This document shows positions 47,590 through 64,000 of a stretch of DNA of 64,000 nt, piece by piece. The first letter of the stretch is position 1, and each line of letters begins with the position of its first letter. The notes under the pieces were generated by a model, which saw only the letters and a list, made by a program, of their open reading frames with translations, made no database searches and had not been told where the DNA came from. The DNA comes from a virus (lineage: Duplodnaviria; Caudoviricetes): IMG/VR virus record IMGVR_UViG_3300021431_000090, positions 32,001 through 96,000 of that record. One strand, given 5' to 3'. Both the position numbers and the translations under genes were made by a program.

Positions 47590-48282
47590 CTATTTGTTTA
47601 TGTACGTATTCTTGAAGTCTTCGAGTAATTTAGCTGCGAGAGAAGACTCTTTAATTGCTAAGTAATTTGCATTCTTAGCGAACCTCGAAATAAACTTCTT
47701 GACTTCCTCGGTCTTGTCCTGATGATCGGCAAGGTACTGTTTGAGGAGTGTGTCAAATTCCCCAATGATTGCCTCAGCGATCGCTTTATCTTCAGATGCC
47801 TCAGCAGCTTTCTGTTTACTACGGTAAGCGTCTACGTCGATGTCGGACTGAGCGATTTGGAAGAATGAAGTAAGGAACTGCCTCATTGTGTACGTAAGAC
47901 CAGATCCTAGCGCCTGTGATGGATCGGCCTGAGAGCCAGTGACAAACCACGGAACTTCGATATAGTCATCTGGGTCTTCATCATTTATCCATTTGTAAAT
48001 CATATCTGCTTTTACAAGCATCTCTGTAACCGTGTTATCATATGGCTTTCCCGTCTTATCCACTTTTGTGTTGACAGTAACCATCTGAGAAACCTCGGCG
48101 GTCCCAGGAACAATTGAAGGGATTAGCGAAACATCGTACTTTTTCATACCAGCGGTGACCTTTGCAAGGATTTCCGTGATGTCTGTGTATGAATAGTTGA
48201 ATCCCTTTTTGTCTTTCTTCGCTACGTCACTAATCTTGCGAATGTTTGCAAGCTTCTGAACCAAATTAAGTTTTGCTTCCAT
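47590..48282 (-). CDS. ERF-family single-strand annealing protein
   Basis: 'YSYTDI..I', 'D.SQALGSGLTY..R.FL...F....D.D'. Confidence 0.85.
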   Translation of the reverse strand: MEAKLNLVQKLANIRKISDVAKKDKKGFNYSYTDITEILAKVTAGMKKYDVSLIPSIVPGTAEVSQMVTVNTKVDKTGKPYDNTVTEMLVKADMIYKWINDEDPDDYIEVPWFVTGSQADPSQALGSGLTYTMRQFLTSFFQIAQSDIDVDAYRSKQKAAEASEDKAIAEAIIGEFDTLLKQYLADHQDKTEEVKKFISRFAKNANYLAIKESSLAAKLLEDFKNTYINK

Positions 48283-49339: not shown

Positions 49340-49771
49340 TCACGCAACCGTAATGGTTGCGTTTAAGGAGACTGCTTTTTGCCACAATGTGATAAGGATA
49401 TCCGGGTTTAAAAATGAAATAGCGGACGACGCTAAAATACTTGCGCAAGCAACTTCTGCCATATATTCATCAGGTAAAGATGTAATATAATCGCCTATCC
49501 GTTCTTTCGACATTCTCTCCGGGTTCTCGCAGAGAACAATACTATCCTTAGGCAACCCAATCTCTTTTGCGGGGAGTATCACATGCGTCGGCTGTCGCGT
49601 TTTCTTTGCGCGACTCGTAAGCGGCAGAGCTATAATATTCGGGCTATACAAATTCCCTACGTTATTTTGGAAAACCAAACCAGGCCTCCACCCTTTTTGT
49701 TCGCTTCCGCTTCCACCGAATTGCATATAGTAGATATCCCCGATACGAGGCTGTCTACTTATTGCTATCAT
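49340..49771 (-). CDS. PemK/MazF-family endoribonuclease
   Basis: 'GDIYY...GSEQKGWRPGLVFQNNVGN.YSP...PLTS...PTHV...DS.VLCE'. Confidence 0.88.
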   Translation of the reverse strand: MIAISRQPRIGDIYYMQFGGSGSEQKGWRPGLVFQNNVGNLYSPNIIALPLTSRAKKTRQPTHVILPAKEIGLPKDSIVLCENPERMSKERIGDYITSLPDEYMAEVACASILASSAISFLNPDILITLWQKAVSLNATITVA

Positions 49772-52354: not shown

Positions 52355-53518
52355 CTAGCATTTCTTTAAAACGTTTACGCACGCAGCTATCGCTTTTGCT
52401 GCAAACCTAACCTCTTCTTTTGTATTCATTCTTGAAAAGGAAATTCTGACTGAGTTTCGTGCGTCATCGTCTGGAATCCCCATCGCTACAAGCACATGAC
52501 TGGGGTGATTTTCCCTACTCGTGCATGCAGAACCTGCGGAAACACAAATTCCCTCTGCATCTAACATGAGTAGTAACGTCTGCCCATCCACGCCGTCGAA
52601 TCTCAAGTTAATTGTTTTCCCAACAGAATTTACATCCGGCCCGTTTACATGAATAATATCTGCAAACCCGTGTCGCTGTAGCGATAGTTCTGAAACAAGT
52701 GTTTTGTAAAACATCTGCTTCATGCTGGATGTGTACGCACTATATTCCGCGAAGTTATTCCTTAGTATCTCACATGCCTTTCCAAACCCAACAATCCCAG
52801 CTACATTTTCCGTGCCGCCACGCAGACCGAATTCCTGCGCAGACCCACCATTAATAAGAGGGTTACACAATAGTTTGTTTCTAACAAATAACGCACCAAC
52901 GCCCTTCGGTCCGTGTATCTTATGTGACGAGATCGACATGAAATCACAATTGAATTTCTTCACGTCGAGTTCCACACTACCGGCTGCCTGAACGCAATCT
53001 GTATGGAAAAGAATACCATTTTCTGCGCACACTCTTCCGATATCCTCAATTGGATTCACTGCTCCAGTTTCGTTATTCATGCACATAATCGATGCATACT
53101 TTGTATTTTCTGTTATTCTATCACAAAATGCAGAAAATTCAATGCTTCCATTCAAACCGACTGGTACGTACTTTGCCTTGTGCCATATATCCACATCATC
53201 AACAGCGTTAAGAAGTGAATCATGTTCGGCCTCATCTGTTATGATTTCCTCGTCATCAATAACGCCTAGAAAAGACTTGACGGCTAGATTATTAGCTTCA
53301 GAGCCACCGGATGTGAATATAATCTGATCTGGTTCCGCACCAATCAGACTTGCCACATGATTCCTTGCTGTTTCTACAGCGCATTGCGCTCGTCGGCCAA
53401 GAGAATAAACACCGCCAGGATTCCCGTATTCATCTTTTAAGTACGGCATCATTTCATCTAAGACTCTCGGATCAATCTTAGTTGTTGCCGCGTTATCAAG
53501 GTAGATCAAGTTAACCAC
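52355..53518 (-). CDS. iscS: Cysteine desulfurase (IscS/NifS family)
   Basis: 'YLDNAATT', 'HTDCVQA', 'SSHKIHGPKGVG', 'SAGSACTS'. Confidence 0.93.
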   Translation of the reverse strand: MVNLIYLDNAATTKIDPRVLDEMMPYLKDEYGNPGGVYSLGRRAQCAVETARNHVASLIGAEPDQIIFTSGGSEANNLAVKSFLGVIDDEEIITDEAEHDSLLNAVDDVDIWHKAKYVPVGLNGSIEFSAFCDRITENTKYASIMCMNNETGAVNPIEDIGRVCAENGILFHTDCVQAAGSVELDVKKFNCDFMSISSHKIHGPKGVGALFVRNKLLCNPLINGGSAQEFGLRGGTENVAGIVGFGKACEILRNNFAEYSAYTSSMKQMFYKTLVSELSLQRHGFADIIHVNGPDVNSVGKTINLRFDGVDGQTLLLMLDAEGICVSAGSACTSRENHPSHVLVAMGIPDDDARNSVRISFSRMNTKEEVRFAAKAIAACVNVLKKC

Positions 53519-57797: not shown

Positions 57798-58237
57798 AAA
57801 AGCCTTCTGCATAAAGCAGAAAATATATTTGAAAGTTTGTGTTTTAAAACGACGAGAAACTCGTCTAGAATTAATTGAGAATAATCTCAAAAGAAGTTAA
57901 ATATCAATTTTCCTTAGAGAGTCAAACCTCTATTTATTCTGGAATTATTTACTTGTCGGTTTACGAAATGCCTAACGGTTAGTGAATAACGTAGAACGAA
58001 GAGCGAATAATGTAGAATGAAGTATGGTTGTTGAAACGCATATCGATCTTCAGAATGGTGGAACACTCAGGTATTATCATGCCTGAAAAGTCCCTAAATA
58101 TGTATTCACAAAGCGTATTTTATATTATATAAAATCTGCTTATAAATCCTGCGTATTCGCAAGTGACCAGTTAACGTACTGCCAGACGAAAACACCAAAC
58201 GATCTCATAAATCTTCTGCTTTATGCAGAGGGCTTTT
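57798..58237 (-). ncRNA. Candidate ~440-nt structured RNA closed by a 24-bp terminal stem, with internal heptamer repeats
   Basis: Inverted repeats 57798-57821 and 58214-58237 (23/24 match); no convincing ORF; heptamer run 57974-58022; strand inferred from the upstream gene. Confidence 0.6.
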
Positions 58238-58251
58238 GCCCTCAAGTGTTA

Positions 58252-58878
58252 TTACGCAATAAACTTTTCTGCGTAATCTGCAATTACATCCTCATAATCC
58301 TCGTCCACATCAAACGGGGGTGTATAGAATACCTCTGTATTCACCATATACGAATCAATTGTTTCAGAGATCTTATCAGCGTCAGTTGCAAGCCTGCGAG
58401 CCATTGCCTTATCTGCTTTTCGATTAAACAATTCCTCACCGGTTGTCTCAATCGTATATGTATACGGAACTTGATTTCCCTCTACATTAAATCTGTAGCC
58501 TGTGCCATTGCTCTTGGATTTCTTCGGCTTATTTTCAAGCATATATTTAAGTGCGCTGACTGCTTTTCTCCTGAATTTATTTGCCTCGATCTCAGCGTCG
58601 ACATCCTGCGGTAAGCCGCGCTTTGCATTCCCGATCGCAATGCTAAGCATTTCTTTTTGCTCGATTAGATTTTCAATAAAAGAAACCACAATATCATTCT
58701 TGATAAACTCATCGACGTCAACTACCTCTTCGATATCCGCATCTTCTGGGTTTACCTCTGACTTCTTGTGCAGTCTTTTTGTTAGAATGCAGTGTTCAGG
58801 TCTAATGATACTGCTGCAAGCTCTCGACATAATCCGATCAAGATAGCTCTGGTATCTAAACGCTTCCTTTAAATTCAT
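58252..58878 (-). CDS. Uncharacterised coiled-coil-rich protein (MNLKEAFR...GYRFNVEGNQ) directly upstream of the ncRNA candidate
   Basis: 208-aa ORF with SD GGAGG. Confidence 0.75.
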   Translation of the reverse strand: MNLKEAFRYQSYLDRIMSRACSSIIRPEHCILTKRLHKKSEVNPEDADIEEVVDVDEFIKNDIVVSFIENLIEQKEMLSIAIGNAKRGLPQDVDAEIEANKFRRKAVSALKYMLENKPKKSKSNGTGYRFNVEGNQVPYTYTIETTGEELFNRKADKAMARRLATDADKISETIDSYMVNTEVFYTPPFDVDEDYEDVIADYAEKFIA

Positions 58879-59329: not shown

Positions 59330-59403
59330 TGGCAGAGGCAGTCGGAGTTGAACCGACACCGTGAGAGCCAAAATCTCATGTGCTACCGCTACACCATGCC
59401 TCG
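59330..59403 (-). tRNA. tRNA-Gln(UUG), CCA encoded
   Basis: Cloverleaf with anticodon arm TGAGA-TTTTGGC-TCTCA and T-arm GTCGG-TTCAACT-CCGAC. Confidence 0.88.
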
Positions 59404-59841: not shown

Positions 59842-60198
59842 AATCATGTAATCTACATAGGTAGTTTAGCCGCCGGAAGACATCACCTTAGGACCGGACC
59901 CTGCTAACGAGTTCCTTCGCGTCCGGCTGCTCGCTCAATACAGGGGTTGTTAAGATGCCTCCCCGAGTAGTTTTTGTGTGAAATTCTTTGGCTTCGTCAG
60001 GATATTTCTTCTTCGTGGAGTCACACTCTTGGTGAAAGCCTTGGTTGATCAGCAGTTCTACTCGAGTTCGTAGAGCACGGTGCCCGCCATCGCTCTCCAG
60101 CTGCCTTCGTGAATTCCCCATCTCGTTCACTTATCAAATTATTACTTCTGCGAAACGCTAGAAGCTGCTTCAATAGAAACAAATTGCATTACATGATT
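59842..60198 (-). ncRNA. Retron-like msr-msd RNA, unit 1
   Basis: a2 AATCATGTAAT (60198-60188) followed by G60187; stem TGTTTC/GAAGCA; hairpin CTTCT-A-GCG-TTT-CGC-AGAAG (60164-60145); a1 ATTACATGATT (59852-59842). Confidence 0.7.
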
Positions 60199-60337: not shown

Positions 60338-60414
60338 TGGTGCCGCCGGATGGATTCGAACCATCGATCATCCGATTATAAGTCGGAAGCTCAAACCATC
60401 TGAGCTGCGGCGGC
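60338..60414 (-). tRNA. tRNA-Ile(UAU), CCA encoded
   Basis: GCCGCCG acceptor stem, anticodon arm TCCGA-CTTATAA-TCGGA, T-arm GATGG-TTCGAAT-CCATC. Confidence 0.9.
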
Positions 60415-60419
60415 ATTTC

Positions 60420-60641
60420 CCTTGCAATCCGTGCGCCAAAAATAAGCTTGTATTTTTAGGGCGCATGCATTATCCTGCCATTTAGACGTAGCCTATTTGC
60501 GAGGCTTGCCGGGCGGCTTCCGCCGGGCAAATGAGCAAATAAGCGTACGGATAAATGCAGCTAACATTTTCATCCTTCTGCGAAACGCAAGAAGCAGTTG
60601 CAAATATGTAAAAGCTTCAGCAACTAATCTACATTGCAAGG
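60420..60641 (-). ncRNA. Retron-like msr-msd RNA, unit 2
   Basis: a2 CCTTGCAAT (60641-60633) followed by G60632; stem AGTTGC/GCAACT; hairpin CTTCT-T-GCG-TTT-CGC-AGAAG (60594-60575); long msd hairpin; a1 ATTGCAAGG (60428-60420). Confidence 0.72.
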
Positions 60642-63366: not shown

Positions 63367-64000
63367 TCAAGAACTTAAATCTTCCTTCATCATCTGCTTA
63401 ATGCTGCCACATCCCAGCTTCTCGCTAAGATGAGCAACCATCTCATCAATCTTTGATCCCTCCACCATCTTGTAATAGTTATAAAGACCATTAAGTACTT
63501 GAATATCATGCAATTCCCAGCTATTCCCCGTGTTTCTATCTCGCACGTAAGTTGTCAGCATTGCCTGGAAATTCCTTTTATTCTTATACCCGATTGTGAT
63601 CTCATTGTTCGCATTCAGCATTACGCCAAGGTTCCAATTTCTACCAGCGGACGAGCCGTATCTTGTTTTTGCGCTATTAATAGTGAACGGAGCGTTGAAA
63701 CTATGCAAAGTCTCTATGATCGCATTTTCCACTTTGCGATAATCAAAATCAAACTTGGATGAGATTAGGAAATCATCTGCATACCTTGTGTACACATATC
63801 TCTGTTTCCCAAAATCTCTAAACATATTTGTAAGCTTGAAGTCCACAGGGATCATCATAATATTTGTGATCAGCGGAGATATCGGTGTCCCTTGCGGAAG
63901 ACCTCCGTCTAATATCGCAAGATCAAGTGCATCTTCCAAAGCTTTTTTACCACGCTGAGTCTTTACCACTTCTGAAAACGGGAACACCATCGAAAACATC
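63367..64000 (-). CDS. Retron-type reverse transcriptase, C-terminal half (5' end lies beyond the window)
   Basis: 'LPQGTPISPLITN' and 'YTRYADDFLIS' catalytic motifs, then 'INSAKT...NLGV' and a short thumb with no maturase or endonuclease domain. Confidence 0.88.
   Translation of the reverse strand, partial: MFSMVFPFSEVVKTQRGKKALEDALDLAILDGGLPQGTPISPLITNIMMIPVDFKLTNMFRDFGKQRYVYTRYADDFLISSKFDFDYRKVENAIIETLHSFNAPFTINSAKTRYGSSAGRNWNLGVMLNANNEITIGYKNKRNFQAMLTTYVRDRNTGNSWELHDIQVLNGLYNYYKMVEGSKIDEMVAHLSEKLGCGSIKQMMKEDLSS

What the first reader, a model, noticed from the sequence alone, without database searches (positions are those of the whole stretch)
57798..58878. Uncharacterised protein gene followed by a ~440-nt closed-stem RNA with heptamer repeats
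A 24-bp inverted repeat (AAAAGCCYTCTGCATAAAGCAGAA, one mismatch) starts 14 nt after the stop of the 208-aa gene and encloses ~390 nt of non-coding DNA in an otherwise gene-dense region. The centre holds seven in-phase heptamers (+ strand AACGGTT AGTGAAT AACGTAG AACGAAG AGCGAAT AATGTAG AATGAAG, 57974-58022); the last six form a 21-nt duplication (18/21 identity). Smaller hairpins flank them (GACGAG-AAA-CTCGTC, TTGAGA-ATAA-TCTCAA, ATTTTATA-T-TATATAAAAT). Inference: a ribonucleoprotein module in which an oligomeric protein binds a periodic single-stranded tract, or a type III TA-like or sponge RNA. I recognise no named family.
Basis: partly seen in the sequence, partly recalled or inferred. Interest (0 to 1): 0.72.

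Follow-up and report, generated by a model that had tools for sequence, protein, structure and literature searches.

The report
New large phage RNA with partner gene
The gap after the 208-aa gene encodes a roughly 440-nt folded non-coding RNA, closed by a long stem and paired with that orphan gene in well over a hundred gut and rumen Clostridia phages; it matches no catalogued RNA family and its function is unknown.

Summary
Window 58237-57798 (minus strand, same strand as the genes) encodes a ~440-nt structured RNA.

- **Conserved closing stem.** A 25-38 bp long-range stem starts a median 14 nt after the stop of the 208-aa homologue in 90 of 106 viral loci and 68 of 75 independent bacterial-genome loci. 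Its sequence differs between lineages while pairing is kept.
- **Strand.** G-U pairs outnumber A-C mismatches 270 to 88, so this is an RNA on the gene strand, not a DNA repeat.
- **Internal structure.** Inside lie a second helix, an H-type pseudoknot and further hairpins, all with compensatory changes.
- **Genomic behaviour.** The element is single-copy per phage and always follows this gene, while the flanking genes vary.
- **What it is not.** It matches no Rfam family, including ROOL and GOLLD. It does not match the msr-like RNAs of the retron-type reverse transcriptase in the same phage.
- **Partner protein.** The protein has no Pfam or PHROG family and no clear fold match.

Function is inferred only. 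Most likely it is read through from the gene, released by RNase III at the stem, and acts with the protein. It is a new RNA family within a known kind.

The parts
58252..58878 (-). 208-aa orphan protein gene, the invariable upstream partner of the RNA
   Evidence: ORF list. No Pfam, PHROG or NCBIfam family. 956 homologues of about 205-212 aa. AlphaFold2 model has pLDDT 94.7. The best solved match is 3kdq_A, of unknown function, Z 11.5.
57798..58237 (-). The whole structured RNA element, about 440 nt, 5' end at 58237
   Evidence: Delimited by closing stem P1. Covariance model R2 hits 58133-58237 on the minus strand as the only strong hit in the genome.
58196..58237 (-). 5' arm of closing stem P1: perfect core 58214-58237, imperfect extension to 58196
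   Evidence: On alignment A3, P1 has 26 pairs, 97% paired, 20 of them with compensatory changes.
57798..57839 (-). 3' arm of P1. In this lineage it can also fold alone into a terminator-like hairpin (57823-57803) followed by a U-run
58238..58246 (-). Upstream half of a small 6-bp hairpin with a 4-nt loop, just after the stop codon. Its descending strand is the start of the P1 arm, so it competes with outer P1
   Evidence: Direct reading. A comparable hairpin overlaps the arm in 74 of 127 elements.
58189..58200 (-). P2, 5' strand. It pairs with 57835-57845
   Evidence: MFE fold. P2 columns 44-51 with 602-609 of A3 show compensatory changes in all 8 pairs.
57835..57845 (-). P2, 3' strand
58166..58188 (-). 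H-type pseudoknot: three nucleotides 5' of hairpin P3 (58186-58188) pair with the P3 loop (58175-58177). The P3 stem is 58178-58183 with 58166-58171
   Evidence: PK helix 84% paired with 3 of 4 pairs covarying; P3 98% paired. The same topology occurs in type-B relatives, 96.7% paired versus at most 40% when slid.
58148..58163 (-). Hairpin P4, a 6-bp stem. Most type-A relatives carry the loop AGCGAU here
   Evidence: all 6 pairs have compensatory changes.
58057..58063 (-). UUCCACC motif, invariant in the window's clade
   Evidence: Alignment A5 of 7 sequences.
57974..58022 (-). G-poor single-stranded tract with seven in-phase heptamers (21-nt duplication, 18/21)
   Evidence: The heptad-like UUCR repeats recur in L027, L030, L206 and L208. 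Family-wide enrichment and 7-8 nt spacing are shown, and the central G depletion.
57851..57890 (-). Two 3'-domain hairpins (57875-57890 and 57851-57865). The second is followed by a U-run
   Evidence: Both keep pairing through compensatory changes in L027.

Best explanation
**Shown.** The gap is the gene for a ~440-nt structured non-coding RNA on the minus strand. It forms a conserved two-part module with the upstream 208-aa gene. Its architecture, in order:
- a near-perfect 25-38 bp closing stem P1;
- a second helix P2;
- a 5' domain with an H-type pseudoknot and hairpins P3 and P4;
- a variable middle holding a G-poor single-stranded tract with UUCR motifs every 7-8 nt;
- 3' hairpins.

**Inferred.**
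- The RNA has no room for a promoter of its own between the stop codon and P1 (median 14 nt). It is therefore most likely made by read-through from the 208-aa gene.
- P1 is longer than two helical turns of duplex, so host RNase III would cut it. That would release a stable RNA and separate the upstream and downstream messages. The small hairpin after the stop codon could then re-form and cap the upstream mRNA.
- The released RNA acts through its pseudoknot domain and its periodic single-stranded tract. The most likely partner is the co-inherited 208-aa protein, giving a ribonucleoprotein or an autoregulatory pair.
For: **P1 is conserved in place and covaries.**
- It is present in 90 of 106 viral loci and 68 of 75 genome loci. 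Control searches placed elsewhere scored at most 42, against a threshold of 45.
- The arms differ in sequence between lineages.

**The RNA is on the gene strand.**
- With strand-neutral scoring of 116 distinct stems: 2887 Watson-Crick pairs, 270 G-U, 88 A-C.

**The internal structure is supported.**
- On A3, 50 pairs are 91.8% paired, versus 71.7% in shuffles and at most 44% when slid. 42 pairs have compensatory changes; 0 of 500 shuffles reach the observed values.
- The type-B pseudoknot is supported.

**It is single-copy and locus-specific.**
- Model R2 gives one strong hit per genome in the 13 genomes of the model's own (type-A) class among 33 searched, each next to the gene; most of those 13 supplied the model's training sequences.
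- blastn and pattern search find one copy in the window's own genome.

**Gene and RNA form a module.**
- The 208-aa homologue is present in 98 of 98 loci, while the flanking genes are found in 1 to 24 of 98.
- The downstream ORF varies from 60 to 880 aa.

**It is non-coding**.

**The protein has a possible binding surface.**
- It carries invariant aromatic and basic residues (F130, Y139, Y141; Y128 nearly invariant) that lie within the two predicted beta-strands 120-130 and 136-146.

**RNase III would have to be the host's.** None is encoded in the phage.
Against: - There is no transcript, cleavage or binding data. Everything after 'structured RNA linked to the gene' is inference.
- The protein is acidic overall and has no recognised RNA-binding domain.
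- A few homologues (L037, L038, L040, L151, L157) are followed directly by another ORF with no element. The protein can therefore exist without the RNA.
- Linkage could reflect co-transcription only.
- At least four UUCR motifs occur in only 22 of 102 central tracts.
- In this lineage both arms can also fold locally, and the 3' arm looks like a terminator. P1 may therefore compete with other folds.
Confidence: 0.45

Rival explanations
1. It is a trans-acting RNA that works without the 208-aa protein. It could be a self-assembling ornate RNA in the manner of ROOL and GOLLD. It could also be a decoy or sponge for a host factor or defence system, merely co-transcribed with the gene.
For: - It is large, pseudoknotted, phage-borne and close to tRNA genes (59330-59403 and 60338-60414; tRNA arrays in relatives). 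Those are the properties described for ROOL and GOLLD (PMC5737381; PMC12286853).
- About 24 nearly invariant nucleotides lie in the type-B pseudoknot.
- The protein lacks a known RNA-binding fold.
Against: - There is no match to any Rfam model, even at E up to 10.
- The RNA was not found away from the 208-aa gene in 33 phage genomes, though the model used detects only the type-A form.
- The flanks change while the gene and RNA stay together.
Confidence: 0.2
2. It is a purely cis-acting processing or insulating element. In this reading it is a long RNase III stem plus structured spacer that uncouples or tunes expression of the flanking messages, acting as a 3' UTR of the 208-aa gene or an antiterminator for the next gene. 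The RNA would have no function of its own.
For: - P1 abuts both genes: median 14 nt after the stop and 47 nt before the next start.
- A competing hairpin sits at the 5' end in 74 of 127 elements.
- The 3' arm can fold as a terminator in this lineage.
Against: - A processing site needs only the stem. About 390 nt of interior with a covarying pseudoknot, conserved hairpins and conserved motifs is unexplained.
- The downstream gene is not conserved.
- A terminator-like hairpin near the 3' end occurs in only 23 of 127 elements.
Confidence: 0.2
3. It is a further template RNA for the phage's retron-type reverse transcriptase. In this reading it is an msr/msd-like cassette whose inverted repeats correspond to a1 and a2.
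For: - The same phage encodes a retron-type RT about 5 kb upstream on the same strand.
- That RT comes with several closed-stem cassettes.
- 22 of 32 related phage records also carry such an RT.
- Both RNA kinds have G-poor interiors.
Against: - Covariance model R1 of the msr part finds the known cassettes and new ones in many relatives, but nothing in this element at E up to 1.
- Model R2 of this element does not hit the cassettes.
- P1 is 25-38 bp, against 9-12 bp for the cassette a1/a2 stems.
- No conserved unpaired G follows the 5' arm.
- Two records rated 100% complete carry the element but no RT match: G020 with L068 and G026 with L087.
Confidence: 0.1
4. It is a DNA-level feature: a miniature transposable element, a replication origin with iterons, or a recombination site bounded by inverted repeats.
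For: - It has inverted repeats at both ends, an AT-rich palindrome (58117-58135) and short periodic repeats.
- A short direct copy of the outer 3' arm precedes the 5' arm in many relatives.
Against: - It is single-copy in every genome tested.
- The G-U to A-C asymmetry of 270:88 and G-U-dominated pairs in P3 would be mismatches on the other strand or in DNA.
- Compensatory changes in five helices, including a pseudoknot, have no DNA-level rationale.
Confidence: 0.03

Closest known systems
ROOL and GOLLD RNAs (large ornate bacterial and phage RNAs; Weinberg et al. 2017, PMC5737381; Kretsch et al. 2025, PMC12286853)
   Same: - Several hundred nucleotides long, with multi-helix architecture and pseudoknots.
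- Carried by phages and prophages of Firmicutes from gut and rumen.
- Located close to tRNA genes.
- Function unknown.
   Different: - No match to their Rfam models or any other, even at E 10.
- Shorter: median 433 nt, against a reported average of 581 nt for ROOL (length).
- Closed by a very long, near-perfect terminal stem.
- Always follows one particular protein gene.
Retron msr-msd non-coding RNA
   Same: - Closed by inverted repeats at its two ends.
- Structured 5' part and G-poor interior.
- A retron-type RT and genuine msr-like cassettes lie in the same phage.
   Different: - Fails the covariance model of the phage's own msr cassettes.
- The stem is two to three times longer.
- No conserved priming G.
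- Present in RT-less complete phage records.
RNase III processing stems that flank rRNAs and intervening sequences (established knowledge)
   Same: Long-range pairing of the sequences flanking a structured RNA inside a polycistronic transcript, with a duplex of more than 20 bp.
   Different: - Cleavage has not been shown here.
- The enclosed RNA is not an rRNA.
- The module is phage-borne and protein-linked.
Type III toxin-antitoxin RNAs (ToxI and relatives) and repeat-binding systems such as TRAP or CsrB-type sponges
   Same: A protein gene sits next to an RNA that carries short periodic motifs in a single-stranded tract.
   Different: - The repeats are degenerate heptads, not a ~36-nt tandem array.
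- The RNA lies downstream, not upstream.
- The protein has no ToxN-like match.
- Most of the RNA is a complex fold, not a repeat array.

Membership tests
ROOL / GOLLD / any Rfam 15 family | Match to the family covariance model | tested here: not met
   At gathering scores cmscan finds only the two tRNAs in the window. In 16 related loci it finds tRNAs and one drum RNA, none in the gap. At E up to 10 on the element and on a type-B relative, only chance-level hits of 10-16 bits appear.
ROOL / GOLLD | Phage or prophage location close to tRNA genes | tested here: met
   The genome is a 107-kb phage record with terminal repeats. tRNA-Gln lies 1.1 kb and tRNA-Ile 2.1 kb upstream. This is context only, not a membership criterion on its own.
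Retron ncRNA (msr-msd) | Inverted repeats a1/a2 closing the RNA | tested here: met
   P1 is present. It is 25-38 bp, against 9-12 bp in the phage's own cassettes.
Retron ncRNA (msr-msd) | msr stem-loops of the kind recognised by the cognate RT | tested here: not met
   Model R1, built from 15 cassettes, finds 23 cassette sites in 40 sources but none inside the element at E up to 1. The reciprocal model R2 does not hit the cassettes.
Retron ncRNA (msr-msd) | Conserved unpaired priming G directly after the 5' repeat | tested here: not met
   The cassettes have an invariant G after the a1 repeat. Alignment A6 of 22 elements shows no conserved G at the inner end of P1 or P2.
Retron ncRNA (msr-msd) | Obligate co-occurrence with an RT | tested here: not met
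   An RT was found in 22 of 32 related records. It is absent from G020 and G026, both rated 100% complete and both carrying the element.
Retron ncRNA (msr-msd) | Production of branched msDNA | not testable with these tools
   This needs co-expression and detection of cDNA.
Type III toxin-antitoxin | Tandem array of ~34-36 nt RNA repeats upstream of the toxin gene | tested here: not met
   TRF finds only a 13-nt, 2.2-copy array elsewhere in the gap. The 21-nt unit occurs twice. The RNA lies downstream of the gene.
Type III toxin-antitoxin | ToxN/AbiQ-type endoribonuclease partner | tested here: inconclusive
   PADLOC gives only a weak HamA hit (E 0.0017) and Pfam gives nothing. The fold searches list no such nuclease, which does not exclude a distant one.
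Miniature transposable element | Multiple copies per genome | tested here: not met
   There is one copy in the window's genome. Model R2 gives one strong hit in each of the 13 phage genomes it detects among 33 searched, always at the same locus.
RNase III-processed long-range stem | Duplex of at least about 20 bp formed by the flanks of the enclosed RNA | tested here: met
   P1 is 24 bp with one mismatch here and 23-40 bp in relatives.
RNase III-processed long-range stem | Cleavage by RNase III | not testable with these tools
   This needs end mapping in wild-type and rnc-mutant hosts, or cleavage in vitro.

The most novel reading that the evidence does not exclude
The gene and the RNA form a previously undescribed phage ribonucleoprotein. 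An orphan-fold protein would bind, probably as an oligomer, the periodic UUCR tract or the pseudoknot domain of a ~440-nt RNA that is cut out of the early transcript. The particle would act on host or phage RNA metabolism, or against a host defence. The neighbourhood fits such a role: tRNAs, a retron-type RT with several templates, a phosphoesterase, a MazF-like toxin and, in relatives, RNA ligases.
Probability: 0.3. Interest if true: 0.85.

Novelty: new variant of a known kind. Interest (0 to 1): 0.72.

Why it matters
Very few bacterial or phage RNAs of this size and complexity are known. Each one studied so far (RNase P, group I and II introns, OLE, ROOL, GOLLD, raiA) has turned out to be biochemically unusual.

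This family has four useful properties:
- It is abundant. There are 956 homologues of the partner gene and 127 distinct elements collected here.
- It is confined to phages and prophages of gut and rumen Clostridia.
- It has strong covariation and a sharply conserved pseudoknot.
- Unlike ROOL and GOLLD, it comes with a dedicated protein gene, which gives a direct experimental handle.

At least two records are from sequenced isolates rather than metagenome bins: an Oscillospiraceae chromosome (L184) and Intestinibacter bartlettii (L181). Expression and genetics are therefore feasible. The family should also be added to RNA family databases, so that these gaps stop being read as empty spacers.

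Tried and rejected
- **Rfam.** Four searches, at gathering and at E 10, on the window, 16 relatives and a type-B relative found nothing in the gap.
- **Phage collection.** blastn of the locus found no match.
- **tRNA or tmRNA.** None in the gap.
- **Coding potential.** Rejected.
- **Retron cassette.** I saw a resemblance by eye between hairpin P4 plus the following AU-rich run and the msr hairpin of cassettes c1 and c3. Neither covariance model bridges the two RNA kinds, so I treat it as chance.
- **Neo-like rolling-circle template.** There is no long stop-free frame on either strand.
- **Internal terminator as a general feature.** It occurs in only 23 of 127 elements.
- **Phage-encoded RNase III or RNA ligase in this genome.** None. 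The RNA_lig_T4_1 search had no positive control, so that one is uninformative.
- **Protein fold.**
  - Foldseek against PDB gave only TolC-like helical hairpins at E above 0.02.
  - BFVD gave one uncharacterised Vibrio phage protein.
  - VIA-align gave 3kdq_A, of unknown function, at Z 11.5. For a largely helical model that is not decisive.
  - The profile search against PDB sequences gave nothing below E 0.05.
- **One wasted scan.** A viral-contig scan used a mis-registered arm pattern.
- **Literature.** Four searches found no description of this RNA or protein. The 2023 phage structured-RNA catalogue (PMC10690425) does not mention retrons, ROOL or GOLLD, and could contain this motif unnamed.

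Full report
**Setting.** The window is bases 32001-96000 of a single 107,085-bp virus record with direct terminal repeats, rated complete. Around the finding all genes run on the minus strand.
- The 208-aa ORF is 58878-58252.
- A 477-nt gap follows.
- Next come a calcineurin-type metallophosphoesterase (57774-57022, preceded by a purine-rich Shine-Dalgarno-like motif) and a GP88-family gene.
- Upstream lie two small orphan ORFs, tRNA-Gln and tRNA-Ile(UAU).
- About 5 kb further up is a retron-type reverse transcriptase.

**The observation.**
- A 24-nt inverted repeat with one mismatch, extendable to 42 nt at 83%, starts 14 nt after the stop codon and encloses 392 nt.
- Seven in-phase heptamers lie at 57974-58022 and contain an 18/21 duplication.
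- Three small hairpins are present.
- The arms are unique in the genome.
- Both strands fold equally well, with z about -8.5, because the long stem dominates.

**Comparative evidence.** The 208-aa protein has no Pfam, PHROG or NCBIfam family. It does have 956 homologues of very uniform length.

I fetched 110 viral loci, 80 loci from bacterial species genomes and four more close relatives. In nearly all of them an ORF-free gap of 400-750 nt follows the homologue.

The two ends of the gap pair with each other over 25-38 bp, although the arm sequences differ between lineages.
- Viral loci: 90 of 106 have such a stem. The same search placed 1.6 kb upstream as a control never exceeded a score of 42, against the threshold of 45.
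- Independent genome set: 68 of 75 have it.
- With scoring that treats G-U and A-C alike, 116 distinct stems hold 2887 Watson-Crick pairs, 270 G-U and 88 A-C.

That asymmetry shows the pairing is selected in an RNA read in gene orientation, which is the window's minus strand.

**Internal structure.** On 17 type-A sequences, RNAalifold recovers P1 (26 bp), P2 (8 bp) and two hairpins, P3 and P4.

I added a 3-4 bp pseudoknot between the nucleotides just 5' of P3 and the P3 loop. I had seen it by eye and then confirmed it column by column.

Counted together:
- 50 pairs are 91.8% paired, versus 71.7% after shuffling and at most 44% when the partner is slid.
- 42 pairs show compensatory changes.
- No shuffle of 500 reaches the observed values.

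A second, more distant group (type B, 25 sequences) has the same pseudoknot topology with about 24 nearly invariant nucleotides. It is 96.7% paired versus at most 40% when slid, with G-C/C-G and U-A/C-G swaps.

**The centre of the RNA.** The middle is poorly alignable but has a conserved character.
- Across 127 distinct elements (median 433 nt), the central 40-60% drops to 14-17% G and rises to 26-27% C.
- UUCGC is five-fold over-represented there.
- Consecutive UUCR motifs are spaced 7 or 8 nt apart 15 and 12 times, against 1.1 expected.

The window's heptamers are the local version of this tract. Similar heptads recur in its clade: L027, L030, L206 and L208. That clade also shares an invariant UUCCACC motif.

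The gap is not coding. All frames are closed, tblastx against the closest relative (L027) scores all six frames alike, and the longest ORFs are equal on both strands.

**Genomic behaviour.**
- A covariance model of the 5' domain (R2) gives one strong hit per genome in the 13 genomes it detects among 33 searched. Each lies next to the homologue of the 208-aa gene, and most of these genomes supplied the model's training sequences. The only other hits, weak ones, are mostly the 3' arm read on the other strand. The remaining 20 genomes, including the type-B ones, gave either no hit or only such weak hits, because the model was built from type-A sequences.
- Among 98 non-redundant loci that carry the element, the 208-aa homologue is found in all.
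- The window's upstream neighbours are found in 1 and 3 of those loci, and its downstream neighbours in 18 and 24.
- The next co-directional ORF ranges from 60 to 880 aa.
- A handful of homologues lack the element.

Gene plus RNA is therefore the conserved unit, and the RNA depends on the gene's presence rather than the reverse. By record titles the hosts are mainly Oscillospiraceae, Ruminococcus, Roseburia and other Clostridia from gut and rumen, including two sequenced isolates.

**What it is not.**
- No Rfam 15 family matches, including ROOL, GOLLD, OLE, raiA and HEARO, even at E 10.
- The retron idea came from earlier notes of this scan, and I tested it.
  - The RT is retron-type (PADLOC RT_II-A 3.5e-45; NCBIfam retron St85 family 6.7e-48, below that model's cut-off).
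  - It is preceded by an RNA with 9-12 bp terminal repeats, an invariant G and two conserved hairpins. Two more such cassettes lie at 60420-60641 and 59842-60198.
  - A covariance model of this msr-like part finds cassettes in many relatives, but never inside the element.
  - The element also occurs in two complete records without any RT match.
- It is not a type III toxin-antitoxin RNA.
- It is not a multi-copy mobile element.

**The protein.** AlphaFold2 gives a confident model (pLDDT 94.7) of long helical hairpins packed against two beta-hairpins.
- Invariant aromatic residues (F130, Y139, Y141; Y128 nearly invariant) fall within the two longest predicted strands, 120-130 and 136-146.
- Foldseek finds nothing convincing.
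- VIA-align's best match is 3kdq_A, a Corynebacterium protein of unknown function (Z 11.5, 145 residues aligned, rmsd 4.6). For a largely helical model that is suggestive only.
- Atlas neighbours are unnamed viral clusters.

**Mechanism.** Shown: a conserved, strand-specific, pseudoknotted RNA that is inherited together with one orphan gene.

Inferred from anatomy and established knowledge:
- Transcription is by read-through, because only about 14 nt separate the stop codon from P1.
- Host RNase III cleaves P1. P1 is a duplex of more than two helical turns, and the phage encodes no RNase III.
- Cleavage releases a stable RNA.
- The upstream message is capped by the small hairpin that overlaps the 5' arm in 74 of 127 elements.
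- The RNA acts through the pseudoknot domain and the periodic single-stranded tract, most plausibly with the 208-aa protein.

I put about 0.9 on 'real structured RNA family tied to this gene' and about 0.45 on the full mechanism. The main rivals are a protein-independent trans-acting RNA (0.2), a purely cis-acting processing element (0.2) and a retron-like template (0.1).

**Verdict.** This is a genuine, previously uncatalogued large phage RNA with a dedicated partner gene. It is a new family within the known kind of large ornate phage-associated RNAs. Its function is unknown but directly testable.

Noticed in passing
window 63367-64000 and beyond (L111:1213-2376, minus strand); cassettes at window 60420-60641 and 59842-60198: A retron-type reverse transcriptase is preceded by an msr/msd-like RNA, and two further cassettes of the same build flank tRNA-Ile. 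A covariance model of the msr part finds one to three extra cassettes per locus in many related phages, so one RT appears to serve several dispersed templates.
   Followed up: partly
L001:5447-6087: A drum RNA (Rfam RF02958, 57 bits) sits inside an array of tRNA genes just downstream of the element in a related phage.
   Followed up: no
window 49340-49771 (minus strand): The phage carries a PemK/MazF-like toxin gene (Pfam E 1e-22). Nearby are a class-V aminotransferase (52355-53518), an ERF recombinase (47590-48282) and two integrase-like genes.
   Followed up: no
L208:19-840 and L209:984-1388: In two relatives an RNA ligase gene lies next to the 208-aa homologue: T4 Rnl1-like in L208 and a weak RNA_ligase hit in L209. 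The window's own genome has no match to either RNA-ligase family, but the Rnl1 search had no positive control.
   Followed up: partly
window 57803-57823 and 58213-58243: In this lineage each P1 arm is itself palindromic and can fold into a local hairpin. The 3' one is followed by a U-run (terminator-like on the minus strand), which suggests a possible switch between P1 and two local hairpins.
   Followed up: partly
type-B relatives, e.g. L015, L018, L025, L187 (central part of the element): Type-B elements share a CU-rich central motif containing CUCC and a conserved A-rich motif just before the 3' arm. Neither is explained.
   Followed up: no
G000 contig ends (outside the window): The genome ends carry tandem copies of a roughly 70-nt GC-rich unit, consistent with the direct terminal repeats noted for the record.
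   Followed up: no
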